Source: Rhizaria sp. SCN 62-66 (Eukaryota). Taken from it: DNA of 53,149 nucleotides. Below, piece by piece: positions 11,769 through 49,482 of the stretch. Position numbers and translations under genes: made by a program. How positions within the stretch are numbered: position 1 is the first letter of the stretch; every line of letters begins with the position of its first letter. The stretch is from positions 1 through 53,149 of the forward strand of contig MEDY01000239.1 in NCBI GenBank assembly GCA_001724265.1, in the 5' to 3' direction. The notes under the pieces were generated by a model that ran no database searches, was not told the origin of the DNA, and was given only the letters and a program-made list of their open reading frames with translations.

Positions 11769-14700
11769 TTAGATTTTCGGCAACGGCACCGGCTGAATAC
11801 GCTGCATCATAGCATGCAGACGCTCGCTCTCGCCGCCCACACCAACAACATCATCATCGTCCTTATTGTGGCTCGAGCGAGTGTCGGTGTTGGCGCTGCT
11901 GTTTTGACGCGCTTTGCGATAGCGCGCGCGCGCGGCGGCGGCGTTGGCCGCAACCGTGTCCGCGGCGCGGGCGAAAGCGCGCGCAGCCAAGGGGGTGGCG
12001 AGGCCGTCGGCAGAAGGGGCGCAGAGCCCGGACCAGCTGACGGACTCGGCGGCCGCGAGGGCGGCGGCGGTGAGCGCGACGGGAGGCGTCGGAACCACCG
12101 AGTCGCCGGCGTTCACAGACGCCGCCTTGCGAGCGCTCGGGCCCGTCGTCGTATTGCTGTTGTTGCTCGCATCAGCACCTTTGTGCGCGTGTGTGAGCGC
12201 GCGTGCAAGCTCTTTCCCCAAGGGCGGAATGATCGGGTCAACAATGTCAGTACCACGACGCTCGTGTTTGTCACTGCTCATACTCAGAGCAGCGTAAGTC
12301 GAGTCACTGGTTCCCGCGCTCGCGTTGCCGCCCGCAATCGCAACATTACCGCTCTTGTCATGCTGTTGCTTGCTCTCGCTCTCGAAGTTAAGCCGCATCG
12401 CGAAGTCTAGCCGCGTGCGCACGGCGGCGACGAGCGCGGGCACAGCGACGGGCTCGGCCCTGGCGAGCAGCAGCAGCAGTTGGCCCACGCGGTCGCGCAG
12501 CGCCTGCGGGTAGTGGAACGGGGACAGCAGAGGCGTCACGGCCGCAGCGATTACCGTCGCCGCCGTCGCCCCCACCCCGGCCCCGCTGGCGCTGGCGCTG
12601 GCGATGTACGCGGTGCTGCTATGAGAGCTGTCGGTGTGCGTGTTGGCGATGGGAAGCGAGAGCAGCTCGGGCAGCAGCGCGGCTTGCGTAAACGCGACCA
12701 CGACGCCGGCAATAAGTTTGGCCGCCAGAGTCACGCTACTCGCACTCGTGCTGCTGTAAGTCTGATGACCAGCAGTGCTGGTGCCGATGTAAGTGTCGGT
12801 GAACCGCGCGCGCGCCTCGGCCAGCACCGCCAACAGCAGCGGCAGCGCCTCGGCGGCGAAGCGGCCGGCCAGGAAGCGCGGCGCGGCTTCGAGTGCGCAT
12901 GATAGCGCGGGCAGCGCGGCCGCCGTCGCGGGGGTCACGGGCCGGTGCGTCAGCGGCAGAAGCAGTGAGGGCCAAAGAGACGCGAGGAGAGGCAGCAGGC
13001 GGCGGTCCCAGCGGGAGGGTAAGGGGGTACTTACATCATGCGTCTGAGATGCACCGTCGTCGTCATAATCGTCATCACTGTCACTCTCATCACTCTCACT
13101 GCCATCACCACTCTCGCTATGATGAGCGTTGTTGTCGTCGCTGTCAGTGACTTCCTCCACATAGGCGGATGAAGTGCTGAGGTCCTTAGCAGATGTCTTT
13201 CCGCCCATATTCTTCTCATCGTCAGCACCAGCACCAACATCGGCGGTATAATCCTTCGTGCTGGCAGCATCATTCGCACTCACGACCCACTCTTCGTCGC
13301 CATACTCCATCGTCGAAAAGGCATTCTTGGACTTCTTCGCCCCCGCGGCCTTCCTCTCCTCCTCCGTCATCACCACCCCGCCGCCCAGGCCGCCGCTGCC
13401 GCCGCTGCTGTCAGTGCTGGCGTACGCCCGCAGCGCCGGCGCGGCGCGGCCCGCCGCGGCGAGCGCGGTGACAACAAGGCGCGCGGTGGCGAGTGCAGCG
13501 ACGACGACGGCGGGCACTGGCCACGCGAGGAAGGGCTGCACGTGCGAGAGCACACGCACCAGTACGGCCTCCTCCAGCGACGCGCCGGGGTCTTCGTCGT
13601 CGTCGCCGTCGTTCGCCACGCCATCAGCGTCCGCGTCAGCGGCAGCGTCGGCGGTAGCGGCAGCTTCCTCCGCAGCAGCGGCATCGAGCCCTTGCTTGCG
13701 CAGTTGCCTGATCTTTCGCTTGCGCGCCGCCGCTTTGTCAGCAGCGATGATGCCTTCGAGGCTTCCGTCCAGATCGGCGTCCTTTGCCGTCGAGCGCGAC
13801 TTGCGCTGGGTCTTCGCCTTGGAAAGCGCGTGCTTCGCTGCCCCCAACCCGCCCATCTTGACACCATCCATAGGATCCACCTCCCCTTCCTCGTCATCGC
13901 CGTCTAAAGCACTGCTCTTACTCTTACTCTGAGTCTTGCGCTTGCCTTGAGTACCGCGGATCTGCTTCGACTCCGCGAGCAGCGCCCACCACTTCTGCGC
14001 GATGTCTGCCGCGCTGGCGCCGCCGCGCTGCGCCGAGCTCAGCAGCGCGGACTTGGCGCGCGCGGTCGCGGCGGCGCGGCTGTGCGTCGCGGCCGAGGCG
14101 GCCAGCGCGGCGGCCGCGGCGGCGGCGGGGGGCAGCGCAGGCAGCGCGAGGAGCAGCGCGGGCTGCTCCGAGACGGCACCGGCAGTGGCGCAAACTGTAC
14201 CAGAGCTGGCAGCGTTCCTGCCGTTGAGAGGCGCATCCTCGTGCCACGGCCACAGAGGGCTAGCAGCGCTAGAGCCGGCGTCAGTGAAACCACTAACACG
14301 CGACTCGCCACCATCGCTCGCGACGGTAGTCCCTGTCTTCGCAGCAGCAGCGGAGAGCTGGAGTTGTTGTTGCTGCTGCGCGTGCTCAATCGCGTTGATG
14401 TGCGTGATCTTGCCGCCCTGGAGTGTAAGTGCCTTGGGTTGCAGACTAAGTACCCTGGGATTAGCCTCCCCGGGCGCTGCGTGGGCCCGCTCAACCTCGT
14501 CCACAGCCACGACAACCGCGGCACTTAAACCAGTGTAAGTAGCTGCGGAGGCGCCGCTGCCGCCCGTGGAGAGACACGGCACAGCAGTGGCGGACGTTGC
14601 GGCAGTAGCGGTGGCGGCGTTCGCGTCAGCCGTGGCCGCTGCGGAGGCCGACACGTACGGAATGCACACGACCCACTTAGACTCGTGTAAGGGGTTGCCG

Positions 14701-17700
14701 GCATCAGCGCCATTGCTGTGCTTGCTGCTGTTGTTGCCGCTGCGGGCGCTGTTGAGATTGCTGCTCTTGGAGACTGTAAGCACGCGCCGGTACACAGCCC
14801 TTACAATCGCGCTGACAAGGTCTAAGTACACCAGCACACCCTCAGACGCACTCACATTCACGCTAGCGTTCGGACTGGAGCTCGCTGTCGCCGCCGCCGC
14901 TGCGACGGCCGCCGCGGTGCTCATGCTCTCCAGCACCTCTCCCAACAGATCTTTGAGCGCGGGCACCAACTCTGGCCCCGCGGCAGCCAGGTCCAGCGCG
15001 GCCCGCAGCAGCCGCGGCAGCGCCGCCGCCGCCGTGGCCGCCGTGGCCGCCGCGGCAACCGCGGTGGCGGCCGCGGCGGAGGCGGCGCGCCAGTCGGTCA
15101 GGGCGCGCGCCAGCGACACAAACGCGCCGGCGCCGCTGTTCGTCGCGACAACGCTAGTGCCCGTGCTCGTGTCTGCGGTGGAGGGCGAGGAGGCGGATTG
15201 GCTTTGCTGCTGCTGCGAAGACGCGGCTTGGCTTTGCGCGTAGGCCCTCATGGCGTTTAGGTAGGCAGCGCGCACTTTGACGAGCGCTAGCTGTACGGCA
15301 CCATCAAAGTCATCCTGCTGTTGTTGCTGCTGCTGTTGTTGCTCAATGCTCGCCGAAGTCAGGCCGCGACGACCTAACTTCCTGACCTGACCAGCAACGT
15401 GCGCGACGAGGTAGTCAGCGTTGTGCGCAACGAGCAGGTCCGTGCGGCCCTGGGGCGCACCGGAGCGCAGCGCGAGGCGGGCCAGCGCGGCGGCCGCGGC
15501 GGCGCGCGGCGCCGGGTGCGGCGACGCCAGGCGCGGCAGCGCGAGGGGCAGGACGCGGGCCAGCAACGCGGGCGGCAGCGCGGACGCAGAGAGCGGGGCC
15601 AGACACGAGGCCGCGGAGGCGACGAGGCGCAGCGCGTGCGTGTGCAGCAGCAGCAGCCGATGCTGGCGGAGCGACGCCGGGGGCAGCGCCTGCGCCTGTG
15701 GCTGTGTCTGCAGTGCGGGGGCGAGGAGGTCGCTCGCGGAGGCGCCGCTGTTGATGGCCCGGAGGAGAGTGAGTGCGGCGACGGCCGACGCGGGCGTGTG
15801 CGCAGGCAGGTGCCACAGGGAGGACTGGGTCAGGGTCTGCAGCGCTGTACTTAGACTGGATGTGAGTACCTCGGAGGGCGGACTCGTGGGGTCGAGGCAC
15901 CAAGGGTACTCATGCTGCTCAAAGTCGTTGGCGACATCGTTGTCACTGTCGCTGTCGTCGTCGCTGTGGTCGCCGCGGCTGCTATCCTCAGTCGCCGTGT
16001 CAGCAAATTCAATGCCGATGTTGGTGTTGGCGATCATGTTGGCGTTGAGATCATCAAACGGCGCAGTGAAATCAGTGTTGATGTAGTTGAGGTCGTTGTT
16101 ATAGGCATTGTAACTGAACTCGGGATTATTAGCACTTGCGGTTGCAGCAGCCGCCTCAGCGCGAGGGTTCTCTTTGCTGCTCGTAAGACTGCGAGCCGAG
16201 GGGATTTGCGGAGGCAGCAGTGTAAACAGCGATGTAAGGGGCGCGGCGTGACTTCCGACCGCGGAATCGGCAAACTCGCCTGCCACCGCGGCCACAGCGG
16301 CCACAGACACACTATGGTGACCGTCATTGCGGTTCGCAGTCGTGTCATAGTTGCCGTTAGTGAGAGAGAGCAAGAGAGAGTTAAGGCTGTTGTTGCGATC
16401 GACGGCAACCTCCGCAAGCACCGCTGCTGCTTCATCTTCCTCATTAGCGTCTAAGATGGTGCCCACACCGACACTGGATGTTAGTGCTTCCTCAGAGATC
16501 TGCCCCCACTCCTGCTGCACACGCACACCCAGCACGAGCTGGTTCAATACAACGACTGATTCTGACGCGTAGCCGTCGGCCTCAGCGGCGGCCACGGCGG
16601 CGGCCACGGCAGCGCTCGCGGCACTGCCGCTGCCGCTGTGACCGTGGGCGGCGGCCGCGGCGGCCGAGCGGCTGCGCAAGCCGTGGCTGCCGCTGCCGTT
16701 CGCGGAGATGCCCATCGACTCGATCAAAGTCAGGGCGCGCTCGGACAAACCGGGGGGGAGCTGTCGGCTAGAGGTGGAGTTAGAGCTATGATTCCCACTT
16801 GCAGTAACATTCGGAGCGGCTGAGCTGGAGCTGGAGCTGGAGATAATCCCTGCGCCAGAGCTGGTGGTGACGTCGATGACAGTGCCAGAGCCATTATCAG
16901 GATCAACATTGCTGCTGTTGCTGCTGCTCTGCGTGAACGTAAGCGCCTAAGGTCGAATCGCACTCGCGTCGCCGGTCCCTCTTACGCCGGCGGCGTCCGC
17001 GGGGGTACTTAGATCCCCCGCAAGCCCGCTGCTGACGATGGCGCCCCGGGTCGCAACGACCGTGGCCACGCCCGTAGTCAGCGCAACCTCGGCCCAGCCG
17101 GCCACCACGGCCGCGGCGCCGGCGCCCGCCCAGGCAGCCAGCGCGGTGGGCAGCAACAGCAGCAGCGCGGCGGCCTCGGCGTCGGCCGCCAGCGCGGGCG
17201 CCAGGGCCGGGAACGGCGGCAGCGGCAGCTCGTAGTCGGCGTCGGCAGCACCCTCACTGTTACCGTTCCTGCGGGCGCTATCAGGGGTGTCGGAGGGGAC
17301 GGAGCGGTCGAAAGTTAGGCCGCCCCTCACCCCCAGCCCACCGCTCGCACCGGAGTTATTGGAGCCCGTGGCGCCTGTGCCCGTCGCCGTCGTGCCCGCG
17401 GCCGAGGAAATGAGCCCCGGTGAGACTGAGCCTGGCGCCAGTGCGAGCAGCTGTGACAGCGCGCGCACCAGCGCAGGGAACGCAGACAGCAGAGTGTAGG
17501 CGAGCGCGTTGCCGTACGCCTCGCGCCGCAGCAGGTGGTCTTCCCGATCTTGCTCATCGGTGGTATTGCCGCTGCTGCTGCTGCTGTTGCGGTGACGACG
17601 GCCTACCTTCCCGACGCGGCTTAACTTGGTCCTGCCGAGCATGGCGATGCTGGCGAGCAGCAGCCGCAGCGCCCATGCCTGTTTGGCGGCCGACGCCGTG

Positions 17701-20700
17701 GCGTTGGCGTGCGTCAGCAGCGCGGGCAGCGCGAGCAGGCGCCGCAGTGTGCGCTGCTGCAGGGCCTTCGTCACAACGGAGCCGTAGAGCGGGGGCGTGA
17801 GCGCAGAGTGCAAGTACCGCAGGCGCATGGGGGTACTTAAATCCATGTAAGGGGCAGGGACACTCTCAGACTGGCTATGAGTGCGACAAGTACGTTTCTT
17901 GCTTAATTTGCGCACGAGCGCCGCCGTGCCGTCTAAGGGGGTACTTAGATCCCGCAGCGCCAGCGTTGCAGCCCTCGCAGCTGCGCTCGCAGCGCCCACA
18001 CCGACGCAGACACTTGAGCCAGAACCAGAGCCAGAGCCAGTCGCGATAGAGTTAGAAGAGCCAGTGTCAGCAGCGGCGGCGGACAACAGGGCGTCCAATA
18101 AGGTAAGCCGCACTGCGCCCGCAGCTGCCTCAGCCTCAGCCCCAGTCTCCGCCTCCGCCCCTTCTTCATCATCACCAGTCTCTCCAACAGCATCAGCGCC
18201 AGCGCCAGTGTGAGTGCGCGTGGTCGCGACTGCGGCGGGGACAGCGACGGGGGAGAGGTAGAGACAGGAGACGGACCGCAGCAGCGTCGCGGCCGCGGCC
18301 ACGAGCGCGAGCCGCGACAGTGGGTGCGAGCTGCCGGCGACGACGACGCCCGCGCTGCCGCCGGCCACTGCGGCGGCGTCGCCCGCGGCATCGCCACTAC
18401 CATGGTCGCCGCTACTCGAGGCGTCTTGGCAGTCGGCCAGAGGGGCGAAGACGGGCGCGCAAAGACTGCCGATGCGCGCCGCCGTCTCGGCCAGCCAGCG
18501 CGGGGAGCGGGTTCCGAAAAAGTGCCCCTGCTGCTCGCGGTCGGCGCGCTGCTGCTCGAGCAGAGCCAGCGCGCGCGCGCGCAGCGGCGGCGGCAGCGCG
18601 TCGAGCGACTGGCCGCCGAAGGGCAGGGGCGGCTGCAGGAAGTTGCTGATGTCGGCCTTGCGGGCGAGGGTTGAGGTCAGCCAGGTTAGGACCCGGGCAC
18701 TTGAATCCAACGACGCCACATCGGTCTTGTCATCAGGCCTGAGGTTATTGCTTACAGCCGTGCCCGGCTCCGGTTGCTGTTGTTGCTCAGCAGCAGCAGA
18801 GTCGGCAACAGACACAGCAACAGAAGCAGAAGCGGAGACAGCTTTCGCTTTGGCAAACAGCGAGGACAAGCCAGCAGGCAGCGCGGCGTTAACATTCACA
18901 CTTGCATCTACGTTGTCTGCGATATCGTTATTGCTGGCGTCTTTGTCGCTCTCGGTGCTGCTGGACGGCATAACTTCCTCGCCACGCGGCTTATCTTCCA
19001 CGCCGCCGCCGCGCCCCCACTGCCTCGGCTTGAGCGTCAGCGGGTCAACGCATATCAGCGCCAGGGCGGCGTCGCCGAGGCAGAAGGCCACGGAGGCAGT
19101 GAACAGCGCCAGCACGCGCCTGTACAGCCGAGACGTGACACTGGGACTCAAGCTAGCAGCGGTGCTTACATTGCCGCCGCCGAGACTATTGCTGGCAGTA
19201 TGAGGAGTATTGCTACCGCTGCTGGTGCAGAGCACGTGAGCGCAGCCGCCGACGACGCCGGGCAGTAGCGAAGCCCACACCTCGGCGCCCAGGGCGACGA
19301 GCCCGGCCTCCTGGCCCCAGCGCCGCAGCAACAGTGAGGACCCGGGGGCGGGGCCGCGGACCGCGGGCGAGAGGTACAGGGCGGCGGCCGCGGCCGCAAG
19401 AGAGCTGGAGCTAGAGCCAGAGCCAGTTTCTGTGCCAGAGCCGGAGCTAGAGCTCGACTGAGACTTGGTATTACTCTTGTTGTTGTTCTTGTAGTTGTAG
19501 TTGTTGCTGGCAGCGGCAGCAATGGCGGCGGCGGCCTTGGTGGCAGCGTAGACCGCAGTCACAGACAGGGGCACACCGGCACGCGCATTCGCATTCGCAT
19601 TCGCACTGATGGCACTATTGCCGCTGTTGTTTGTGCTCATGTGAGTGTCGGTGATGTAGGTGCAGTCCAGGGAAGGTAAAATACGCAGCAGTTGCCTCCT
19701 TTGCAGTCCGGACATGGCAAGCGCGGCACTAAGAGGGTGCTTAGACAGAGCGTTCACACCGTAAGCCAGAGCTTCGGCGTCGACCGTGTTGCCGTTGTTG
19801 CTTGCATCGCTCATCAAGTACTTAGCCTGGTGGGGGTACTTAGACGCCGCCGACGCGAGGACCGCGGGGTAAGCAGCCAGCCGAGTCGCCATGGCATTCT
19901 CGAGCTTGGAGAAAACGAAGGCGCCGACGCTGTTAGCTGCAGAGCCAGACGCCTTGTTGTGAGCGTTCGCGTCTGTGTTATTAGATGCGCGTACTTTGCG
20001 TTGAGCGTTCTTGCCGAGCGATGTAAGTACATCGAGTGTAAGGGGGTCCGACGCCGTTTCATCAAGGCCAGCCACCACCTCAAGCCAGCCCTGCGATTGT
20101 GCCAGCGACCGAGACTTTGACGGCTGTTGCGCCTTTTGCTGCTTCAGACTCACGGTGACGGCCTCCGACATAGCCAGCACGACCCCCGCGCTGTGCCGCA
20201 AGTGCGGCTGCTCGCGCCCCAGCAAGGCCCTTAGACAGCTAAGGGTGTCGGCCGCCAGCAGCCGCACCCGCATCGGCACAGCGCCGCCTCCGGTCGCAGC
20301 CCCGGGCGCAGGCGCACTCGAGGCCTGCTGCTGCTGCTGTTGCTGTGGCAGCTGCTGCGAGGGGGCGACTCCCTTGATGAGGGAGAGGCAATGCGCAACC
20401 GCGAATCCAATAGAGACGCGCAAGGGCGCTGACGTAAGGGTCAGCGCGAGTAAGGGGGAGTCCGTGGCCGATGTGATGAGCAACAGGTACTTGAAGCAGC
20501 GCAGGGACGCAAGGTACACCGACTCGTGTGTTCCAGGCGTCATCGTCGCATTCGCACTCACGCTTGCGCTGTCCGCTTGAGTGGGGCTGCTGCTGTTGAA
20601 GGGCGGCAGTGTGCTGGGCTGCAAGAAATCAATCAAAAAGCGGAACAAAACCGAGAAAATGGGGTCACGCGTGAATGCCAGCTGTTTGAGCACCGAGCCA

Positions 20701-21397
20701 CTGCCGTTACTATCCCCAGAGACAGAGCCAGAGCCAGCGGCAGAGCTTGTACTGCTATAATTGTTATTATTGTTGTTGTTGACTGTGGTGGAGAGGAAAA
20801 ACGCAAACGCGGCCGCGAGCGCCTCGAGCGCGGCGGCGACAACCGCGGGCACGAGCAGCGGCGGCAGCAGCGCGCGGTCCAGCAACACGCGCGACACAGT
20901 GCCGAACAACGGGTCGAAGAGGGAGGCCGCTTCGGGGGGCGGCAGAAGCAGCAGCGATTCAGCCTCGGCTGCAGTCATAGCGCCACCACTGGCACTGGCG
21001 CTCGCAGTTGCAGTTGCAGCTGCTTTGGCACGAGGTGCGAGCGGCGGCGGCGCCGTTGCGGCGAACTGGAAGTACCCCGCGATCGCGGTGAGGGCCTCCG
21101 TGGCCGCGTGGGCGAAGGAGGTGCTCACGTTGAGCCAGTGGCGCTGCTGCAGCGCGCGCTCCTGTGCCTGCTCCTGCGCGCTCATCACCACGCTGATGCT
21201 CACGCCGCTGCTGCCAGCGCTCGGACTGCTCGCATTGGCCCCGGCGTTAGCGCTGCTAGTGGTGGTGTTGTTGTTGTTGATATTGTTATTGGCCATGTGG
21301 AAGGCTGTTGCGGCAGTGCGCAGCTAGAGATACTGTTGCGACAGCGAGTGGAGCGACTGAGAGATAAACTGGGCAGCCACTGAGGTCAACTCGAGAC

Positions 21398-21441
<44 letters not shown>

Positions 21442-21542
21442 GGCTGCGGCTGCTGCTGAGGGCGGGCAGACGAGGACGAGGGGGCAAAGGGAAATGTGAC
21501 GCCCGGGGAAGCGCCAGCTGGGCGCTGCGGGGTGCCGTTCAT
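11769..21542 (-). CDS. TTI1: TELO2-interacting protein 1 (TTT complex); one 3257-codon frame containing two in-frame TAG (21326-21324, 16949-16947)
   Basis: TTI1-like motifs in the expected order: IGFAVAHCL, WASLLPGVV, RSPRWLAETAARI, then after the second TAG, DLLVAHNADYLVAHV, LLPLLASLWPSL, FLAGRFAAEALPLL. The three listed ORFs share one frame (gaps of 27 and 198 nt with no other stop). Stop TAA. Confidence 0.85.
17932..17949. repeat. Most perfect copy of the dispersed hairpin motif TCTAAG-GGGGTA-CTTAGA
   Basis: 6-bp inverted repeat with a 6-nt loop; about 15 full or partial relatives across the window (see findings). Confidence 0.7.
21400..21456 (-). repeat. (CAG)n poly-Gln tract at the TTI1 N-terminus
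   Basis: CTG run on the + strand, encoding QQQPQPQQQ...Q. Confidence 0.9.
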
Positions 21543-21970
21543 GCTCGAGTCGCGTCACGCGCAGAGGGGCGGGAGCGCGCGAGAGAGCGAGGGCGTTGAT
21601 GTGATACGCGGAGGCTCAGGTCGAGAAGTGAAATCTGCTGCTGCCCAATGAGATAGACAAAGGGTTAAAGAATATAACCCGGTTAGAAGTTTAGACACTC
21701 AGCTTTAAAGCCTTGCTATAAAAACGAGGCACTGAACAGAGTTCAGGGGATGCGACGAGATGAGTCCGGACGTGCGATAGCGCACGAGCGCGGGTAGTGT
21801 CCAGTTCGGGAAGTCGAGGGTTGAAGGAGGTGAAGTAAAAAGGGAGTATTGAAGGGATTACAAAATTTCACGAAATCCTATTAAAGAGAAATACTCACAT
21901 CAGTACTTTCTATATTGTGTCAAAATTATAGACTTATTTACGATCAAGACAGCGTGAGTGCTTACGTTTT

Positions 21971-29848: not shown

Positions 29849-30203
29849 CTTCGCTTAAGCAGCCAAGTGCTGTTCAAGCTGGTTTACAGGGATCATATTT
29901 GAGTTATATAGAAAACAAGGGAGATTTAGCTTCAAACTAAGTTACATAATACGAATACATACTTTTTATTTGGTTAACTCTTTTCGATCTTGTACTAATC
30001 ACGCGCTTCTGTGGTCAGGACAGCTTCTTGCCCATTTGCCCGCCATTGCGAGAGGTGAGGACAAAATATCGAGCGTTTGACTTGCACATGCAATATCTCA
30101 ATAGAATGATCGTCGGTAATTCCTAAACTTGACCATGCTCTAAATCAACCACTTTTGTCATCATTTCCCTTTTTATACTATTTCCTGTTGCAGGTGTCGG
30201 CGT

Positions 30204-33200
30204 ATGTCTTTGTACAACAAACGCCGCACCAAGATTGGTCCTCCAGACCCCGCGGGCACTGCTGCCGATACACCAACACCATCGTCACAACTCACGACAG
30301 CCGATAGCAGCACCGGTATGCTTGCTGCGCCTTACAGCGTCATTGCCGGTAGTGTGGCTAATCCATCTGGTGCTGCTTTGCACTCTGTGCGCTTGTCTGA
30401 GCCTCATCATACCTCCAACACTTCGACTCTTTGTCCTGCAACTACCACGACTTCCAGCCCTGCGCCAAACGTGACGTTTGGCCATGATGTGCCATCTTTA
30501 ACCAACGCACTGTTAGCGACCGGGGCTGCGCCGACAGTGTCAGCCACAGCAACAACTCTAACGACATCCGTCTATGCCTCATCGTTATCAACGTCGGCGT
30601 CAATTCCAGGCGCAGCGCCAGTGTCTGCCTCGCCGTCTTCCTTGCTGTACCAAGGCCGCAGCCGGTCTTTTGGCCACTCTGGCGTGACTGCAATGCACCG
30701 TGGCCTGACCTCAGGCCTTGCACACCGTTATCACGCAACCGGCGGGAGCAAAAGCAACAGCAATAAAGGGCGAATCAACGATTCTCCACGTGCGAACGAC
30801 GCAAAAAACGACACGAGCATCGGTGTCAGCACGGCAACTCACGACGATTCACGCGCTGACACGCACCCTTACATGCCCTCTGGAGGTGTAAGTGCTGCGA
30901 GTACCGGCGGCAACGTCACCACGATCGGGACCTGGCGCCGCACCCGCGGCAAAGTCGCTCCCCAGGCTCCAAACACCCCTACCGCAGCCAGCGATACTTA
31001 CCGTGACAGTCACACCGCATCGAGCTCCTCAGAGTCCCTGTCTCAATCTGGCCTCCAGTCATTGGCTTCGAACACAGGCCCACCGCTCTCGTCGTCTGGC
31101 AGCCAGTCCGAGGCGTACTACGTGACGCGCCTCGGCGAGCGCCTGCCCCCGGGCCCGCTGTCCGCGGCGGCCGCACGGCGCGAGCAGGAGGAGCAGGGGC
31201 TTAGGCTGGGAGCGGCGGCCTACGTGGCTGCGACGCTGCAGAGCAACAGCAACAGCAACGTCGGGATGAAGAGCGACTCTGAGCAGCAGCTGTGTGACGG
31301 TGACCAGGATGAGTTTTCTTGGGACAGTGCGCCATTAGGCCTGGCTTTTGAACAATTTTCAGGCAGGAGTAATGCTGTTCGTGCGCATTCTACGGCGATT
31401 GCTGCCGTATCAACCTCACATGCAGAGACGGTGACCGAGATTACGGTGAAGATTGAGTCTTCGTTAGATGCCACCGAGTCAGGGGCTGAGACCGAGGCAG
31501 ATGCGGCTGTACTTCCGCGCATCAAACGGCCGACCTTTGGGTCTCAACTTGACACCACTGCGCACAGGACGGCCGATGCAGCGTTAAACGCGTCATCTCA
31601 GTCGTCTGCTAGTGTCCAGTCTAAGTATCACGACTTCGCCCCGCTGCCACTCACCGCGTCTAAGTGGGCGCTTCCCCTACAGTTCACCACTGCACTTGCC
31701 GCCCGCGGCGTCACGCACCTGTATCCCTGGCAGGCGGCCTGTCTTTCTCTCCCAGGCGTGCTCGAAGTCAAGCCGCAGACGCACCGGACGACGGCTGCGA
31801 AGCAGAAGCACGGGCCTGGGCCGGCGACATTGCGCAATGTCGTCGTGTCCGTGAGCACGAGTGGCGGCAAGACGCTCGTCGCGGCCATCATTGCGCTGCG
31901 CCGCCTGCTGGAGCCCGCGCCGCTGCCGTCCCCAGGCCTCTGCGCTGACCCTCACGGTCGCTCGGCCACAAGCCGCCCGAATGGCAAGTCTCCCGTTCGC
32001 AGCCACAGTCTCAGTCACAGTCACCGCGTGGTGCTCTACCTTGTGCCCCTCGTCGCCCTTGCTGCAGCGACAGCGGCAGAACTTAGCACCCTGCTCGCGC
32101 CCCTCGGGCTGCGAGTAGCGTCCGCCGCCGGCAACACAGTCGCGCTCGCGAGCAACAGCGGCGCGAACGCGAGCGCGCAAGGCGGTGGCGGCGCGAGTGC
32201 TCTTGACACTGGCGCTGCCGGCGGTGCTGGCGCTGGCGTGGGCGCTGCGAGCACGGCTGCGGCGGCCGCCGGCGCGGACGTGTTGGTGCTCACCTACGAG
32301 AAGGCGACGGCGCTGATCTGGCATCTGACAGCATCAGCGCGCACAAAGGCGAAGACGACCACTCGAGCAACACCGACAGTTTCACAAGCTGCGACAGGTT
32401 CACAGTCGGGTGCGGCGGGCGCTGCATCTGAGGCTGATGTCGAGCTTGAGTTCGAGCCTCCCGCCATTGCGATCCCGCTCGTGGTCGTCGACGAGGCGCA
32501 CGCAGTGACCGACGAAAACGGCCGCGGCGCGGCGCTGGAGGCACTGATCACCGCGATGCACGCGGCGCAGGGCGGCGCTAGTTACATGCGGGGCCTTGGT
32601 ACTCACGCGGGCGACCATGGCGCTGGCAGTCAAAGCGCTGCTGTCTCAAAGACAGCGACTCTGGCGCCCGTGTTGCCGCGGACGCAGATGGTGTTGATGA
32701 GCGCTACTATGCCCTCGACGTCAACAAGGAGCACAACAGAGTCAGCGACCACAAACCCGAGACGGACTCAGGTGACTGTGGGCAGGGGCGTGTTTGGCAG
32801 ATGGCTGCGCGGTGCGGTGCAGTGGCCGCCTGCGTGGGCGCCGGTGCGGGACACGGGAATGCCAGGAACGCACACGTTGACAGCGGGCAATGAGACTAGC
32901 ACTAGCCGCAACCGCAATCACGTTGAGAGTGCATCCGACGGCGATGATAATGATGATGATGACGAGTTAGTAGCAGCTCTAAGGGGCTCCTTAGAGCAAC
33001 CCCTGCGCCCAGTGCCCTTAGAGATTGCGATTTACACTCCAGACCGTCAGCCGCCTCTGCTGCCACAGGAAATTGATCAGTCGCTCCCACAACTACCGTC
33101 TCCGTTGCGATCACAGTCAAAGACTCAGTCCCCTGTGAAGAATCGTGCAAACAACAACGGACCTAGCGGTATGCCAGGTGGTAATCTTGGTAATCTTCAG

Positions 33201-36200
33201 GCCTGTAGCGGCTACGACGGCGGAGCTCTGCGCGTGGTGGCCACCGACACCGGCCACGGCTGGGTGCGCACCGCCAGCAACTCCGACAACAGCAACGCTC
33301 TTCACAACGGAACAGCGACAGTAATGTCGCCAACAACGTTAGCAGTGCGACCCTCAGTCGCAGCATCGCTGTTCCGAGACGAGTTTTTTGGTCCGGCGAT
33401 CCGCCAGGGCGGCGCGCGGCGCAGCGGCGCGCTGCTGCCCCTCTGTGCGGCCGCTGTTGCGCTGGCTGGCAGGGCCGTTGGCGTCCCTGTGGCAGGCGCG
33501 GATGCCGCATCTATGAGCGCTGGCGTGAGCGCGAACATGAAGACTGAGAACATGCTTGATAATGACAAGGACGACGACGATGAGGATGACTTTGCAGACA
33601 ACAATAGCAATTCTACTAGTTCTATTTCTCGTGATGTAAGCCTCGACAGAAAAATGACTTCCCGCGCGAACGCTCCGGCAGCGCGCGCGAGCGCGACAGC
33701 TCACCCTAACACGAGCGCGAACACACTGGCAGACGCGGACACGCGTGCGAGTACTAGCACCGACACTAAGACCAAGAGCAGCGGCGGCGGTGTGATTGTG
33801 TTCCTGCCTACTCGTGACCGCACCGAGCAAACGGCACTGTCTCTCGCGTTTCAAAGCGCACACTTAACGAACCCCAATTCGAAGAGCCAAGCCGCAGTCG
33901 CCCAAAGCCAATCTGCGTTGGTGCGAAACCAAACCGAGCTGATTCAGAGTCTAGCTGCGTTCAAGCTTGCTCAAACGCAGTCCGCAGTTGAGGTGCGGAA
34001 GAGTCAACTGACCCCCGGCTCTGTTTATAAAACAGCGTCAAAGCCAGCAGCAGCGACAACATTATCAAAGTCACTGACAGAGGCACTCCAGTCACCCACG
34101 ATGACTGCAGGAACAAGTGTTCCAGCAAACAATAGCCGTCGGAGTAGCGCAAATCACCCTGCGAGTAGCACGACTCAAACCGAGCTGCAGCGACTGCTGG
34201 AGCTATTGCGCCAGCATTCTCGTCTGTTGTAGCAATACAACATGCAGCAGCAGCGCGAGTGCAGCGTGTTCCTTGGCCACATGCGCGTCTCTCTAAGCCC
34301 GCGGCTTAGCATCGACACACATACGCGGCTAATCAAGCTGAAGCCACTTGCGAGCCCAGGCTATGATCGCGCTCTGCAGTCCGCTTTGGTTGTTGCGGAA
34401 ACACCCATGAAGCTGGTCAGTTCTCCATCTAAAGCGTCATCTGCTCCTTTGAGTAAATCAACCGCCCCATCATCACCAGTGAAGGCTGAGACTGCAGTAG
34501 TCTCTGTCGTTGCTGCCGCTGCTGCTGCCATCGAGACTATCACTCAGCTCACAGTCGCACCGAGCGCCAGTGCTGAGGCTGTTGCCCCCATGCCGCTACT
34601 GTGGGCCCGTGCGATTGCTGCTTCATGCGTTCTTTGCCCGCCTTCTAGCGCACAACCATTTGCGCCATCTCCGTTGCAGCCACAGGCACAGTCTCTGGTG
34701 CCGCTGTCATTTCCGCTGGCCCCTGTCACGTCGTGCTCATAGTCGCTTTGGCTTTTTTGTAGCCGCTTTCTCTGCCCGCCTCCGCCAAAGAGCAATCAAA
34801 GTGCCCTCTTAGATGAGGTTGGGTGCCGGTTAGTTGCTGCGGCGTTTACGCTGATCCACGGGTACTTAGACGTTTCCCTCGACAATCTCAGGTCGAACCT
34901 TACGCTGACACATCTAAGTACCGCCACGGCGCCCACCACTCTGATTTTTAGTCAGGAGTGTGGGAGCTATGCTATTCCACTTCACAACAGTTACAACCAT
35001 AACTTTAGCAACACAAATGCACACCTTGCAGTAACCTTGACACCAATCATGGGCGCAAACTTAGGCTCTGTGATGGACACCTCCACTGCTGCGCATAACA
35101 TGTTTTTAGCTCACAGTCAGCGCAGGTACTATCACGGCGGAGCACAACCAGGGGCTGATGGAGATCTCTCGATCTTTGCCACCGGGGCGATGCTGGGAGG
35201 CGTATTTTACGTGCCTTCGGTCGCAGCTGCTATCACTCTAACGAACCTCTTGTTCCCACCTCTGACCAGCAGCGACAACAGCGAGGTGGACAATCACTCG
35301 GATGCTGCCACTGCTAATTGTTACTTGCTGTCGTGGCTTCGTGCCCGCGCCCGCGCATTCGCTCTGCTTGCTTCACAGTCGCAATCTTTTGCGGGTGCAG
35401 CCAGGGCTGCTGCTGCTAGCCTTCGCGACACGAAAGCTGTCGTCGCTACTGCAAATGCGGCAGCTGAGTCTGCATCTTCGTCTGAGCAATCGAGTGAGCT
35501 GGTGTTGGAGCGACTCACTCCAGTGGTATCTTTGTGTCACACCGACTACGACCTGTCGAAGCACCCCGGCTTCTCTCATCTGACGACCTCGCAGCGCCCT
35601 CCTTTCGACTCATCGATTTTCTCGGTCTTGCTACTACTGGGGGTCTCGCCGCACCACAGCGCGCTGCCCCCCGCGCACCGACGCCTGGCCGAATTCGCAT
35701 TTGCGTCGCGCGTGCTCGCAGTCATAACGGCCACGACGACGCTCGCGGCGGGGGTGAACCTCCCGGCGTCAGTGGTGGTGTTGACCTCGCACTTGACCGG
35801 GATCACGCCGCTGACGCCGCCGCAGCTGAAGCAAATGGCGGGCAGGGCAGGACGCATGGGCGCGGATGCTGCAACGAACAGCACTGCAACTGCTGCCGAG
35901 TCTAAGACTGAGACTGATGCTGATGCTGATGCAGAAGCAGTTGCTGTTGCAGAGGCAGCCGGGGCAGCCGGGTTGTGTGTGCTTGTTTCTGGCATCGACA
36001 CTAAGGAGGACACGTGGCGGCGGCTTATCTTTGATACCAGCGACTCCGAGCGCAGTAAACAATAGAGCCAGCCACAGAGCAAAGCGGGCGGCGCTCCCGT
36101 CCGATTCAGTGTGTCTGACGACTGTGCGAGTAGCTGGTTACGTAAGCTTCCTCCGCCATCGCTCAGCTTATACTTTCAACAACAGCGACAACAGCAACAC

Positions 36201-38519
36201 ACACAACAGAACCCACGCTTCTTACGCTGTTTCAAATGTTGGGCTGACGTCGGCAGTCGAGTTGCACACGATAGCTGGCTGTACGAGTTGTTCTGTCACT
36301 ACACGGCATTTATTTTCTCACATCCTACGTACTCCGACACAGCTGCATTGGTTGCATCCGCTTTGCAGCTGTATTCAACATCACAACTCACCAATTCACT
36401 GTCAGCGTTGCAGTGTGTTGCCACTGCAGTATTCACTCTTGCATTAGGACGAAGCAAGCTAATTTATGCGAACGCAGACGATGCACACACGTCGCCGCCC
36501 CCGCCTTGTTTCCCGCTGGTTCTCACATCGGCCGGACGCAACAACCTGCAGCGCGTGCTCCTGTCCTGGGTCTCGGTGCACTTGGACTCCGCCGCGCCCC
36601 CCTCAGACGCCACTCTGGCTGCGCTGGCGGGCGCGTCTCTGGCGGCCAGTGAGCTGGCTGCAATTGCACAACGGGCGATTATAGACACCATCAAGTCTAC
36701 CTTTTCAGTGTGTCGACCGTGCGCAGACTCTCATCTCAACAACGGTGCGGACAGTCTCGGGAATGTAAGCGCTGACTCGAGCCTCGGCGGAATCATTGCA
36801 AAATGTGCCGGCGCTGTGCTGGCGTTACCCGAGCTAGAACTGCTGCAAACGATGGGTCTGATCACATCAGTCAGCAGCGACTGCAATAGCAACAACAACA
36901 CGACTAGGGCATTGCTTTCAGGTACGGCTTACCTTCCAACTCCCTCGGGCCGCACTGTCTTCCACTCGTCACTGGCCCCCGCAGAAGCACTGGCGCTGCT
37001 GCGTGTTGCTGATGCAGTTGCAGGCGGCCTAACTTCGGTGACACAGGTCGCGCTATGTCTGTTTTGTATCACGTCGATGGGGGTGAAAAACAACAGCAGC
37101 AGCAACATTGCTGGCGCAAACACAAATGCTCGGAAAGGTGCTGCGATGAACAGCAGCAACGTTACAGGGATGAGCAACTCCGGTCTCAGCGGAGGAGGCA
37201 CTGGCGTGGGCATTGATGGCGTGAGGTGGGACAACCTACGGGTTGCAATCACGCCGCGTGCTTACAGTAAGATCGCTGTCACTACTGCCGCGGTCAGTTC
37301 CATCTCTAGCGCGACTGCCCAGCTCCCAAACATGAGTTCAAACGATGTTGCAAGCGTCACTAATGATGACGTCGGCGTCATGCCGGAAACTGATATTCAC
37401 CGCGCGCACGCCACGATGTACAAGAAGACGACGGGCAACAACAGCAACAGCAATTCTACTGTGGTGGACGCTGACGCTTCGACAGCTGACGCGAACTTAG
37501 GTTTCGCGACTGGTGTTGTCGCTCCTATTCTTGACGCAGAAGCAGCCGCCGCTGCGGAGGCTGCTGCTGAGGCCGAATCAGAGGCTGCCGCTATTGCCGA
37601 CGCTGCGGCCGTTGCTGCTGAGACGGCTGCGCGCGGCGGCTTGACCCCAGGCGAGTCTGCCGCTGCCGTGGCGCTCGCCCGGCTACTCGGCGTGCGGGTG
37701 AGCACCCAGTCGAAGAGCAATCAACGGAGTCAGACTGTTGCTTCTGCACTGAGTCTCAGTTCCTCCTCCACTCATAGTCTGAGTGCGATGCGTGGCGGCT
37801 TAACGATCGCCAACGATTACGACGACAGTGACAACGACGGTGATGCCAAGGGAGATGAATCTCATGGACGAAGTGTTCGATCTAAGGGCGGATACTTAGA
37901 CCTTGACGACAGCCCAATCGATTTCCTCGCTCTCTCCCGTCAGTCCCCCTTGCTTGCGCTCTATGCTCCGTTACGCCCCCTTAACGCCACCTACACCGTG
38001 TCCCTACTGTTCTCCGCCCTCGTCCTCAGCGACACGCTCACCCGCGGCCCCCTTGCCGCGGCCCGCTACTGGGGTGTGCAGCCCTCCGCCGCCGCCGCGC
38101 TGGTCTCCGCGGCGCCCTCGGCGGCGGCGCTGGCCACGATGCTCTGCGAGGGCCGCGGTCACCGCGCGCTGGCGCTGGCGTTGGTCGAGTTCAAGGCCTC
38201 TGTGGTTGAGCCCGCCGCTGCGGCGGTGGCTGCGCTAGGTGACGCGTACACTGGGCTGCATAGCTACAACAGCAACAACAGTCACAGTGCGAATGGCGGT
38301 GGCGCTGTGGCGTGGGAGCCCTGGACGATTGCAATGACTGCGGCGAACCCTAATGCTGCGGCGGCTGCTGGTGCTGCTCCTGCTGATGCTGTTGAGTATG
38401 CTGCCACTGCTTCCGCCGCGGCTGCTGCTGCAGCGGCCAGGGCTGGCACAGAGGCTAGGAAGCGACAGGACCGAGACAACAGGGTGCACCAGGCATGGTC
38501 AGCGTTAATGCTGGACTGA
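30204..38519 (+). CDS. HELQ: HELQ/HEL308 (POLQ-like) Ski2-type DNA helicase; one 2771-codon frame containing three in-frame TAG (34230, 34740, 36063)
   Basis: Q motif LYPWQAACL, motif I STSGGKTLVA, Ib TYEKA, II VVDEAH, III MSAT, RPVPL, IV VIVFLPTR; after two TAGs, GVSPHHSAL, V ATTTLAAGVNLPA, VI KQMAGRAGR; after the third TAG, the winged-helix-like PTPSGRTVFHSSL. No polymerase domain. Stop TGA. Confidence 0.88.
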
Positions 38520-40323: not shown

Positions 40324-40357
<34 letters not shown>

Positions 40358-46820: not shown

Positions 46821-46851
<31 letters not shown>

Positions 46852-47206: not shown

Positions 47207-47238
<32 letters not shown>

Positions 47239-47621: not shown

Positions 47622-47674
<53 letters not shown>

Positions 47675-47831: not shown

Positions 47832-48168
47832 GCTTGTGTCCTTCATCGAAGCTGCGTCCTCTGTCGTTTGCGTGGGCAATCTTTGGATTAAGTGTGGTGA
47901 GTTTGTTTCATCATTTGTTTATTGTGCTATATAGTTAACGTTTATGTTTCTGACAATACAATGTGCAACTTTCAATACAAGTCAGCTTTTCATACACTAA
48001 AAGTAGACGTTTGTATAGAACTAGGTAACCCAAGAGTCGTAACTCCTTGCTGGAAATAATTGCCATAAACCTGCCGATGTACGCTCATGACACGGCATGA
48101 CTGAGTCTGACTGGTCATCCGAGTGTTGATTAGCACGACGTTTTATGAAGTATACGCATCGACTCACC

Positions 48169-49482
48169 TCACTCCTCATCGAAGTACATACCCGCGTCGC
48201 CACCAGCAGCCCAGTCACCGCTGCCGCCCTCGTCGTCCTCCTGCTCCTCCTGCTGGCCCCGCAGCACCGCCGCCGCGACCTCGGCCTCGGACATCTCCAG
48301 CACGCGCGCCTGCGCGCGCCGCAGCTGCAACTCCCCATCCTCGCCGTCGACAGCAGGCTCAGCATACACGCCACCACCGCCGCTGCCGCGAGCCGAGTCA
48401 CCGGAACCCGCGCCCGCGTCGGGCAGAGACGCCTTGTGCGCAGCGCGCATGGCCGCAATGCGGGCCTTGGCTTCCTCGTCATCGCTGCCACTCTCACTGC
48501 CACTCAAGTAGGCCTCGTCCCCGTTCGCGTCGACATCGATGTGCCTCTTGTCTCTATCAGCGCCGGTGCCGCGGCTGTTGTCAATGTTCGCGTCGTCGTC
48601 GACCTCGTTCGTAACGCCGTCGTCGTAGTACATGTCGACATCTTCGTCGTCGTCGCCGCCATTCTGATCATTGGCGCTGATGCTTGCGAAGTGACTCCGC
48701 TTCACTGGGGCATCATTGTCATTCTCATCGCCGTCACCGTCGTCATCGTCGTCGCCCTCGTTCACGCCGCCGCCGCTGTCGCTGGCGTCATCACCGCGCA
48801 GCCGCTTGCGCCTGTTCTTCTTCTTCATCGCCCGCGCGGCCCGCGCCACGGCCTCCGCGCGCTCCTTCTCCTGCCGCACCCGCTCCAGCCGCTCGGCGAC
48901 GCTCTCCGCGGCCTTGCCGCCGCCCGCCGCGCCCTCGGCGAGCCGCCGCACGTGATGCGCAATGCGCGCGCGGACGTCGGTCACGGAGGCGCGGCGCACG
49001 TGCATGCTCACGCCCAGCGCTTTCTGGTGCTTGCGGCCGTTGATGTGCGCCAGGTAAGCCTGCGAGTCGGAGAGGATGACGTCGCAGACGGCGCAGTGGA
49101 AGCCCGCGCGCGTGCCCTTGGTCACCGCGAGGGTCTTGCCGACATTAGCGTAGAGGTCCAGGCGCGCGTCGCGAGCCGACAGCAGCCCGCGCGGGGCGGC
49201 ACTGGCGGCGCCGGCGGCATTGCCCGCAGCCGTGGCGGACTAGGCCTCTTGCTGTTGGGCGGCGGCGAGGTACTGGGAGGTGTCCCAGGTGCGGCGGCCG
49301 ATGTTGTCGACAAACTACAGTGTGGGATTAACCGAAAAAGTGAAATCAGGAAGTAAGAAAGAATGGATGAGACTGGCGTGCGCTGAGTAATACGTAAGAG
49401 ATGAGGAGTGAAGAGCTTGGAACAGGGGCATGTAAAGCGACTGATGACGAGGGACCGTAATTACCTTTTGTGGCTGAGCCAT
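48169..49482 (-). CDS. ZMAT2: Zinc finger matrin-type protein 2 (Snu23); exons 49482-49465 and 49314-48169; in-frame TAG at 49242-49240
   Basis: Spliced product MAQPQK/FVDNIGRRTWDTSQYL...QQQEA*SATA...RGLLSARDARLDLYANVGKTLAV...GFHCAVCDVILSDSQAYLAHINGRKHQKALGVSMHVRRASVTDV follows ZMAT2 (RRKWDxxEY; LLxxRDxxVDL; GYYCxVCD; HINGKKHQ). Stop TGA. Confidence 0.9.

What the first reader, a model, noticed from the sequence alone, without database searches (positions are those of the whole stretch)
49240..49242. In-frame TAG between two conserved blocks of the spliceosomal protein ZMAT2/Snu23
The ORF track misses the N-terminus. Reading upstream gives a micro-exon MAQPQK, a 150-nt intron, then FVDNIGRRTWDTSQYLAAAQQQEA-TAG-SATAAGN...RGLLSARDARLDL. 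The RRxWDxxxY motif is conserved in ZMAT2 and lies 5' of the TAG. The nearest GT would give a 34-nt frameshifting intron, so a micro-intron does not rescue the frame. This is the cleanest and shortest test case.
Basis: partly seen in the sequence, partly recalled or inferred. Interest (0 to 1): 0.82.

Follow-up and report, generated by a model that had tools for sequence, protein, structure and literature searches.

The report
In-frame TAG inside splicing-factor gene Snu23
A conserved splicing-factor gene of an uncultured wastewater eukaryote carries a TAG "stop" in the middle of its reading frame, and the most likely reason is that this organism reads TAG as an amino acid and ends its genes only with TAA or TGA.

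Summary
On the minus strand a Snu23/ZMAT2 gene runs as follows: ATG 49482, micro-exon MAQPQK, a 150-nt GT-AG intron (49464-49315), exon 2 from 49314, TGA at 48171-48169. It has one in-frame TAG (49242-49240), between the invariant FVDNIGRRTWD block and the C2H2 zinc finger.

A spliced transcript of a 62-66% identical relative (L002/P0002) shows the same exon-1/exon-2 join and a linker of similar length. The TAG is identical in three assemblies besides the window. These are L001, a DNA contig of a diverged strain from another study, and a contig from an RNA library that shows no skip and no other letter there.

Five more in-frame TAGs lie in two giant reading frames, and two of them separate the two halves of one helicase core. 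None of 13 gene ends is TAG (7 TAA, 5 TGA, one TAA or TGA).

Best reading (about 0.7): TAG is decoded as an amino acid genome-wide, with TAA and TGA as stops. The residue is unresolved, with a weak hint for Gln. Not shown: spliced mRNA, a tRNA-CUA, eRF1 or any peptide. UAG-only reassignment is known in a few lineages, so this would be a new member of a known kind.

The parts
49465..49482 (-). Exon 1 of the Snu23/ZMAT2 gene: ATG plus five codons (MAQPQK)
   Evidence: Sequence. The relative's spliced transcript L002 has ...GPQK joined directly to FVDNIG.
49315..49464 (-). Intron 1: 150 nt, gtaatt...ctgtag, AT-rich
   Evidence: Sequence. Its length and composition match the other introns of the window, which are 134-179 nt with GC 0.32-0.45. 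Strain differences and indels cluster in the intron and the 5' flank (tables 3 and 4: 49340, 49430, 49493, 49512, 49517, 49526).
48172..49314 (-). Exon 2: 381 codons including the in-frame TAG
   Evidence: Translation. GC at third codon positions is 0.84 for the 356 codons after the TAG.
49270..49314 (-). Conserved N-terminal block FVDNIGRRTWDTSQY (the RRxWDxxxY/F motif)
   Evidence: 11 invariant columns in alignment A1. The same motif is in PDB chains of human ZMAT2 and yeast Snu23.
49240..49242 (-). The in-frame TAG, codon 25 of exon 2, in the variable linker
   Evidence: Unchanged in L001, in X5 record 24 and in X6 record 32.
49027..49101 (-). C2H2 zinc finger of the matrin/U1 type (residues 72-96 of P0001)
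   Evidence: Pfam zf-met PF12874, E 1.2e-06, 29.1 bits against a cut-off of 21.2.
48169..48171 (-). TGA stop of the Snu23 gene
   Evidence: A 5-nt strain indel lies at 48163, just past the stop, as expected for untranslated sequence (table 4).
30144..38516 (+). Frame of 2791 codons free of TAA and TGA (SF2 helicase), with in-frame TAGs at 34230, 34740 and 36063
   Evidence: The Pfam DEAD domain (563-665) lies before the first two TAGs and Helicase_C (1833-1906) after them. Database gene calls of this DNA stop at the TAGs: P0009 ends at 34230, P0012 at 34740 and P0010 at 36063.
11772..21554 (-). Frame of 3261 codons free of TAA and TGA (giant protein with a weak TTI1 match), with in-frame TAGs at 16949 and 21326
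   Evidence: The TAG at 16949 has 1458 and 1725 stop-free codons on its two sides. The TAG at 21326 may lie upstream of the true start.

Best explanation
The window comes from an uncultured eukaryote found in bioreactor and wastewater metagenomes. In this organism UAG is most likely decoded as an amino acid, and UAA and UGA end translation. The TAG at 49242-49240 would then be an ordinary, rare sense codon in the poorly conserved linker of Snu23/ZMAT2. The ribosome reads through it and makes a full-length protein in which the RRTWDxxxY block and the zinc finger sit on one chain. By analogy with published UAG-only codes, the expected mechanism is a tRNA with anticodon CUA, possibly together with an eRF1 that recognises UAG poorly. 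This mechanism is inferred, not shown. The inserted residue is unresolved, with only a weak hint for glutamine. Shown: the gene model, the TAG in independent assemblies, further in-frame TAGs in other genes, and no TAG at gene ends. Inferred: translation of TAG, its genome-wide scope, the tRNA and the release-factor change.
For: 1. Gene integrity. The 11 residues FVDNIGRRTWD before the TAG are invariant in 5 of 5 sequences, and the zinc finger follows it in the same frame. The profile matches human ZMAT2 (E 2.5e-40) and yeast Snu23 (E 2e-11). There is no in-frame ATG between the TAG and the zinc finger.

2. Linker length. Reading through gives 30 residues between D11 and R42, against 25-28 in three relatives.

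3. The TAG is real and stable. It is identical in L001. It is also identical in X5 record 24 (48941-49424, another study, 0 other letters), a strain that differs at six intron or 5'-flank sites. X6 record 32 (49041-49339, RNA library, 0 other letters, 0 gaps) also carries it.

4. Other genes. There are 6 in-frame TAGs, 0 TAA and 0 TGA in 13,705 codons of 14 reading-frame pieces; the zeros for TAA and TGA hold by construction. A symmetric test counted stops flanked by at least 300 stop-free codons on both sides: TAG 2, TAA 0, TGA 0. Off-frame TAA plus TGA make up 1346 of 64,295 codons, so open flanks of 440 to 1725 codons cannot be chance.

5. Function. TAGs 34230 and 34740 lie between the DEAD and Helicase_C domains of one helicase.

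6. Gene ends. 0 of 13 are TAG: 7 TAA, 5 TGA, and one that is TAA or TGA.

7. Splicing. No intron-like sequence surrounds the TAGs. Real introns here are 134-179 nt with GC 0.32-0.45 and GTA[ACT]G-type donors. The 72-nt candidate has about 0.7 GC (my count) and a third-position GC of 19 of 24 codons.

8. Precedent. UAG-only nuclear reassignments are published (passages of PMC5304391, and of PMC11687900).
Against: No spliced mRNA of this organism was seen. The one RNA-library contig over the TAG also runs 25 nt into intron 1. A second contig (41592-41869) runs 47 nt into another predicted intron. These contigs may therefore be pre-mRNA or carried-over DNA, and they do not test splicing. Only 15 of 229 joints were displayed.

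No tRNA of any kind is in the window and no genome is held, so a tRNA-CUA and eRF1 could not be examined.

All six TAGs lie in unconserved, low-complexity stretches. None sits at a conserved column, so no alignment shows which residue is inserted, or even that one is.

The sample is small. If nonsense hits fell at random, 60% would create TAG, so 6 of 6 has a chance of about 0.05. 0 of 13 TAG ends has a chance of about 0.01-0.055 if TAG normally made up 20-30% of stops; that share is my assumption.

Two of the six sites are soft. 21326 may be in the 5' UTR. 34740 is followed by ttttttgtag, which looks like an acceptor.

Strain differences in the helicase insert fall mostly on first and second codon positions (9 of 11, my count), so constraint there is weak.
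Confidence: 0.7

Rival explanations
1. TAG is still formally a stop, but termination at it is leaky or ambiguous in this organism. Near-cognate tRNAs or a weak suppressor read through often enough to yield working amounts of full-length protein, and no complete reassignment has occurred.
For: In-frame TAG is very rare, 6 in 13,705 codons. It is confined to unconserved segments and absent from the highly expressed uS7 gene. That pattern fits a poorly decoded codon.
Against: 0 of 13 gene ends use TAG. An essential single-copy splicing factor carries the TAG 31 codons from its start. One helicase would need three successive readthroughs. The nucleotides after the six TAGs differ (C, G, C, T, A, T), so there is no shared readthrough context.
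Confidence: 0.1
2. Splicing removes the TAG. Either exon 1 is joined to the AG of the TAG itself (a 225-nt intron, giving MAQPQK|SATAAG...), or a 72-nt in-frame intron (49273-49202) is cut out of exon 2.
For: Both GT..AG pairs exist and keep the frame. No spliced RNA of this organism was seen, so neither event is excluded directly.
Against: The 225-nt form would delete the block that is invariant in 5 of 5 sequences and present in human and yeast. The relative's mRNA joins exon 1 to FVDNIG. The 72-nt piece has about 0.7 GC (my count), third-position GC in 19 of 24 codons, a GTACCT donor and no pyrimidine tract. Real introns here are 134-179 nt with GC 0.32-0.45. Its removal would delete the conserved Y and leave a linker of about 6 residues against 25-28 in relatives. 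The X6 contig is colinear over 49041-49339. The same rescue would be needed independently at four or five other TAGs, where no good candidates exist.
Confidence: 0.08
3. The TAGs are true nonsense mutations. This Snu23 copy and the two giant genes are decaying or non-functional alleles, and a working copy lies elsewhere.
For: All TAGs lie in weakly constrained regions. Strain differences in the helicase insert look nearly neutral. 6 of 6 nonsense hits being TAG has a chance of about 0.05, which is not negligible.
Against: There are no frameshifts and no TAA or TGA in frames of 2791 and 3261 codons. The TAG is fixed in strains from at least three studies. Exon 2 shows 0 differences in the diverged strain over 49041-49314, against six in the adjacent 215 nt of intron and flank. 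Third-position GC is 0.84 after the TAG. Three unrelated genes within 53 kb would all have to be broken.
Confidence: 0.07
4. The TAG is a sequencing or assembly error, for example a true CAG read as TAG.
For: The window has one N (4380) and comes from a metagenome assembly.
Against: The same letters stand in L001 and in contigs of X5 and X6 from other studies. TAGs 34230, 34740 and 36063 are kept in X3, and 36063 also in X4.
Confidence: 0.02

Closest known systems
Snu23 (yeast) / ZMAT2 (human), U4/U6.U5 tri-snRNP protein
   Same: It has the N-terminal RRxWDxxxY/F motif, a linker of similar length, and one matrin/U1-type C2H2 zinc finger followed by a charged tail. The profile of the window's protein and four relatives hits human ZMAT2 chains (E 2.5e-40) and yeast Snu23 chains (E 2e-11).
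   Different: The reading frame holds a TAG in the linker. The acidic, low-complexity tail is longer (381 residues from exon 2, against chain lengths of 199 and 194).
UAG-only nuclear code changes: the uncultured rhizarian exLh (UAG = Leu) and Iotanema spirale (UAG = Gln) (PMC5304391, passages); Scotinosphaera (Ser), Protocruzia and phyllopharyngean ciliates (PMC11687900, passages)
   Same: In-frame UAG occurs in several unrelated genes, UAA and UGA are kept as stops, and no UAG stands at gene ends.
   Different: The codon is far rarer here: 6 in 13,705 codons, against 384 in 71 transcripts of exLh. It was seen only at unconserved sites, so the residue cannot be read from alignments. The organism is unplaced, and no tRNA or eRF1 is available. 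The genome is GC-rich (about 0.6) with introns of about 150 nt, unlike ciliate macronuclear DNA (the ciliate comparison is recalled).
Programmed stop-codon readthrough (the UAG-CARYYA type of plant viruses, recalled)
   Same: A UAG inside a frame that continues in phase.
   Different: The six sites share no downstream context, several unrelated genes are affected, and TAG is absent from gene ends.

Membership tests
Snu23/ZMAT2 | N-terminal RRxWDxxxY/F motif | tested here: met
   GRRTWDTSQY in exon 2. It is invariant or near-invariant in alignment A1 and aligned to RRKWDKDEY (human) and GRRTWDREEY (yeast).
Snu23/ZMAT2 | Single matrin/U1-type C2H2 zinc finger downstream of the motif | tested here: met
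   PF12874 zf-met, 29.1 bits against a cut-off of 21.2, residues 72-96.
Snu23/ZMAT2 | Overall sequence similarity to structurally characterised members | tested here: met
   Profile hits to 5o9z_N (ZMAT2, E 2.5e-40) and 5nrl_L (Snu23, E 2e-11).
Snu23/ZMAT2 | Residence in the tri-snRNP and the pre-B/B spliceosome | not testable with these tools
   This needs biochemistry.
UAG-only nuclear code reassignment | In-frame UAG in several unrelated, otherwise intact genes; no in-frame UAA or UGA | tested here: met
   Three genes carry 6 TAGs, 4 of them firm. With flanks of at least 300 codons the counts are TAG 2, TAA 0, TGA 0. A helicase core is split by two TAGs.
UAG-only nuclear code reassignment | UAG not used at true gene ends | tested here: met
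   0 of 13 gene ends are TAG. The sample is small, and some ends are inferred only from composition.
UAG-only nuclear code reassignment | UAG sites align with one amino acid at conserved columns of orthologues | tested here: inconclusive
   The target TAG aligns with E, E, K and S in a gapped linker. No relatives cover the helicase TAGs. A neighbour-composition score ranks Q first and L second, which is only a weak hint.
UAG-only nuclear code reassignment | Mature mRNA keeps the UAG (no splicing, no editing) | tested here: inconclusive
   The RNA-library contig X6 record 32 keeps TAG without a gap, but it is unspliced at intron 1.
UAG-only nuclear code reassignment | Cognate tRNA with anticodon CUA | not testable with these tools
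   No tRNA was found in the window and no genome is held.
UAG-only nuclear code reassignment | Altered eRF1, or peptide evidence | not testable with these tools
   eRF1 is not in the window and no proteomics tool is available.
Programmed readthrough signal | Shared 3' context or structure after the stop | tested here: not met
   The six downstream contexts differ. No structure search was done.

The most novel reading that the evidence does not exclude
The window belongs to a so far unrecognised, non-ciliate eukaryotic lineage of wastewater reactors that has reassigned UAG alone (UAA and UGA stay stops). It was caught at an early, low-frequency stage: about 0.04% of codons, all at unconstrained sites, and none in a ribosomal protein gene. 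That would be a natural snapshot of how a freed stop codon re-enters coding sequence.
Probability: 0.35. Interest if true: 0.8.

Novelty: new member of a known kind. Interest (0 to 1): 0.62.

Why it matters
Nuclear codes in which UAG and UAA differ in meaning are rare; the passages read name only a handful of lineages. A further case in a GC-rich, intron-bearing, uncultured eukaryote of engineered water systems would add an independent data point on how stop codons are captured.

There is also a practical consequence. Standard-code gene callers cut this organism's genes at every TAG. The database holds the helicase in pieces that stop at its three TAGs, and it holds Snu23 without its N-terminus. 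Annotations of this genome bin will therefore be systematically truncated.

The Snu23 site is a compact test case. One short exon carries a conserved motif on one side of the TAG and a zinc finger on the other, so a single junction-spanning read set or one peptide would settle the question.

Tried and rejected
- **Whole genome:** not held, so no search for tRNA-CUA, eRF1 or genome-wide stop usage was possible.
- **The look-up of sequencing runs:** busy twice and answered on the third identical request.
- **Codon-usage log-odds scoring of the flanks of every stop**. One search used mis-phased training coordinates and was discarded. The corrected versions did not discriminate, because antisense and shifted frames of this GC-rich DNA score as well as the weakly biased helicase gene. 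I rely on the open-frame-length test instead.
- **Representative search with 1200 residues of the helicase**. 3465 hits at E up to 0.001, but only the window's own fragments and the conserved Helicase_C part matched. Nothing covers a TAG site.
- **Metagenome scan with the Snu23 alignment**. 10 loci. The closest relative is 62% identical (L002), too far to align the linker codon by codon. L003 and L004 (44%) show TAG only near ORF edges and served only as a rough standard-code comparison.
- **Atlas search with the HD-domain protein**: no useful taxon.
- **PDB search with uS7**. The best chain is 5xxu_F (278.5 bits), followed by plant-type and 3j7a chains. This does not place the organism.
- **Rfam** and **ARAGORN**: nothing found.
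- **RNA evidence**. X6 has no cover in bins 34614-35170 and 38513-39069, and no splice joint of this organism was among the 15 joints displayed. Neither fact is used as evidence. One of the 7 differences in X4 record 9 is not listed, so that record is not counted as keeping TAGs 34230 and 34740.
- **Literature**: no paper in the held library describes a UAG reassignment in an activated-sludge eukaryote. The Scotinosphaera paper is not held.
- **Supplementary files:** closed and not consulted.

Full report
**1. What is there**

The finding lies on the minus strand. An ATG at 49482-49480 opens a six-codon exon (MAQPQK) that ends at 49465. A 150-nt intron follows (49464-49315, gtaatt...ctgtag). 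Exon 2 starts at 49314 and reads FVDNIGRRTWDTSQYLAAAQQQEA, then TAG (49242-49240), then 356 further codons to a TGA at 48171-48169.

Pfam finds a matrin/U1-type zinc finger at residues 72-96 of exon 2 (PF12874, 29.1 bits, cut-off 21.2). A profile built from this protein and four relatives hits human ZMAT2 chains (E 2.5e-40) and yeast Snu23 chains (E 2e-11) in the PDB. The alignments place GRRTWDTSQY opposite RRKWDKDEY and GRRTWDREEY.

**2. The gene model**

The word-indexed protein search returned 4 proteins:
- P0002, 66% identical.
- P0003, a standard-code call of the window's own DNA. It begins only after the TAG, at a GTG read as M.
- P0004 and P0005, two more distant relatives.

P0002 is encoded by L002, a 1229-nt contig in which ...CCT CAG AAG is joined directly to TTT GTC GAT AAC.... 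This is the spliced form of the same micro-exon/exon-2 junction.

P0008 belongs to the same 90% cluster and comes from a longer contig. Its N-terminus (…GLQ before FVDNIG) looks like a read-through intron end, and it is otherwise colinear. That suggests, by inference, that the relative has no intron in the linker.

In alignment A1 the first 11 residues of exon 2 are invariant in 5 of 5 sequences. The stretch from D11 to the invariant RG is 30 residues in the window if the TAG is read through, against 25-28 in three relatives. The TAG column aligns with E, E, K and S in a gapped region, which says nothing about the residue.

**3. Is the TAG real?**

- L001, a 4279-nt contig from the metagenome collection, is 100% identical to 46213-50491 and carries the TAG.
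- The runs that hold the stretch are bioreactor, wastewater, fuel-cell and activated-sludge metagenomes from 8 studies.
- Four runs were laid on 33500-50200.
- X5 record 24 (another study) covers 48941-49424 with no other letter and one 1-nt gap at 49340. This strain differs from the window at 49430, 49493, 49512 and 49517 and has indels at 49340 and 49526, all in the intron or 5' flank.
- X6 record 32, from a poly(A) metatranscriptome library, covers 49041-49339 with no other letter and no gap.
- Of the other TAGs, 34230 and 34740 are unchanged in X3 record 1. 36063 is unchanged in X3 record 2 and in X4 record 11.

A sequencing error or a private nonsense allele is therefore very unlikely.

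**4. What the RNA contig does and does not show**

X6 record 32 excludes, for that molecule, the 34-nt, 72-nt and 225-nt skips and any U-to-C editing. However, it extends 25 nt into intron 1. Another X6 contig (41592-41869) extends 47 nt into a second predicted intron. No splice joint of this organism was among the 15 of 229 joints displayed.

The contigs may therefore come from pre-mRNA or carried-over DNA. Splicing is untested, and this is the main gap in the evidence.

**5. Can an intron remove the TAG?**

The window's recognisable introns are 134-179 nt, have GC 0.32-0.45 and carry GTA[ACT]G-type donors. Examples are 38978-39131 and 41823-41956 on the minus strand and 47330-47474 on the plus strand.

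Around the target there are 25 in-frame GT..AG pairs of 30-300 nt.
- The only pair with a good donor is the exon-1 donor joined to the AG of the TAG (225 nt). That join would delete the invariant block.
- The 72-nt pair (49273-49202) has about 0.7 GC (my count), G or C at 19 of 24 third codon positions, no pyrimidine tract and a GTACCT donor. Its removal would take out the conserved Y and shrink the linker to about 6 residues.

At the other five TAGs the candidates are 30-57 nt or GC-rich. Only 34740 is followed by an acceptor-like ttttttgtag.

**6. The TAG is not alone**

Reading TAG through joins standard ORFs into frames of 3261 codons (11772-21554, minus strand; TAGs at 21326 and 16949) and 2791 codons (30144-38516, plus strand; TAGs at 34230, 34740 and 36063). 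Reading TAA or TGA through lengthens the longest ORF only from 1994 to 2012 or 2028 codons.

Off-frame TAA plus TGA occur at 1346 of 64,295 codons. Stop-free flanks of 440|817 codons (36063) and 1458|1725 codons (16949) therefore cannot be chance.

In the symmetric test with both flanks at least 300 codons, the counts are TAG 2, TAA 0, TGA 0. At thresholds of 100-200 codons all three stops appear, mostly in non-coding frames of this GC-rich DNA.

The DEAD domain (563-665) and Helicase_C (1833-1906) of the helicase lie on opposite sides of TAGs 34230 and 34740. Database gene calls of this DNA stop at the TAGs.

The site at 21326 may lie before the true start. I count four firm sites (16949, 34230, 36063, 49242) and two soft ones.

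**7. Gene ends**

After correcting for introns, 13 gene ends were read. This includes merging orf350 with the ATG4 gene and orf355 with the 959-codon gene, and adding the last exon of the 1446-codon gene.
- TAA (7): ATG4, uS7, the HD-domain gene, the giant gene, orf1994, the 959-codon gene and 51715-52014.
- TGA (5): orf692, orf270, the helicase, Snu23 and SLX9.
- TAA or TGA (1): the 1446-codon gene.
- TAG: none.

Some of these ends rest only on the drop in GC after the stop. If TAG normally made up 20-30% of stops (my assumption), 0 of 13 has a chance of about 0.055-0.01.

**8. Counter-arguments weighed**

- Random nonsense hits on this codon usage would give TAG 60% of the time, so 6 of 6 has a chance of about 0.05. 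This statistic alone is weak.
- All TAGs lie in unconserved, low-complexity stretches.
- The strain differences in the helicase insert fall 9 of 11 times on first or second codon positions (my count), so constraint there is low.
- Against decay stand the absence of any frameshift, TAA or TGA in frames of 2791 and 3261 codons, the fixation of the TAG across strains, and the intact, strongly biased frame after it (GC3 0.84).

**9. Which residue?**

This is unresolved. A naive score compares the eight neighbours of each TAG with the neighbour composition of each amino acid in the window's proteins. It ranks Q first, 5 log units above L. Q clusters with itself in these proteins, so this is only a hint. 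Published UAG-only codes use Leu, Gln or Ser.

**10. The organism**

It is a GC-rich eukaryote (about 0.6 overall) with introns of about 150 nt and very long, low-complexity proteins, found in engineered water systems. Its uS7 is closest to PDB chain 5xxu_F, followed by plant-type and 3j7a chains. From memory these are an apicomplexan, plants and Plasmodium. This does not place the organism.

**11. Comparison with the known**

As a protein it is an ordinary Snu23/ZMAT2. As a coding phenomenon it matches the published class of nuclear codes in which UAG alone is reassigned while UAA and UGA remain stops:
- the rhizarian exLh (Leu) and Iotanema (Gln), from passages of PMC5304391;
- Scotinosphaera (Ser), Protocruzia and phyllopharyngean ciliates, from passages of PMC11687900.

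It differs in the very low codon frequency and in being unplaced. None of my five literature searches returned a report of such a code in a wastewater eukaryote.

**12. Verdict**

The best explanation is that TAG is a sense codon in this organism (confidence 0.7). It would be a new member of a known kind. Interest is 0.62, because the case is rare, cleanly testable and affects annotation, but it is not yet demonstrated at the RNA, tRNA or protein level.

Noticed in passing
window 4114-4689 (-), N at 4380: An intact ribosomal protein uS7 (RPS5) gene with no in-frame TAG, ending in TAA. The single N of the window falls inside it. The best PDB match is chain 5xxu_F at 278.5 bits.
   Followed up: partly
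window 49950-50098 (+): The divergently placed SLX9-like gene also seems to begin with a micro-exon (ATG TCC AAG), followed by a 140-nt intron (gtacga...ctacag). This is the same layout as the Snu23 gene. It was read from the sequence only and not checked against relatives.
   Followed up: no
window 34740-34765 (+): The TAG at 34740 is followed by tcgctttggcttttttgtag, which looks like a pyrimidine tract plus acceptor. The only in-frame partners are 30-33 nt away, so a very short intron cannot be excluded here. No RNA cover was found in this bin.
   Followed up: partly
window 30144-38516 (+): Public protein collections hold this helicase gene as separate standard-code calls that stop at the three TAGs: P0009 ends at 34230, P0012 at 34740 and P0010 at 36063. 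P0011 begins after the last TAG.
   Followed up: yes
window 11772-21554 (-): A 3261-codon frame encoding a low-complexity protein. Its only family signal is a sub-threshold TTI1 match (22.9 bits, cut-off 27) at residues 2006-2061.
   Followed up: no
window 47607-47687 (+): A (GCC)27 tract encoding a poly-alanine run in the last exon of the 1446-codon gene. Many unrelated metagenome contigs pile up here and at other simple repeats.
   Followed up: no
window 49315-49530 and 48163: The strain in runs X4 and X5 differs from the window by four substitutions and two 1-nt indels in the Snu23 intron and 5' flank. X4 and X6 lack 5 nt at 48163, just past the stop. Exon 2 is unchanged between 49041 and 49314.
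   Followed up: partly
L003 / L004: Two nearly identical contigs from different metagenome records carry a 44% identical Snu23 relative in a genome of about 0.52 GC. There TAG appears only near ORF edges, as expected for a standard code.
   Followed up: partly
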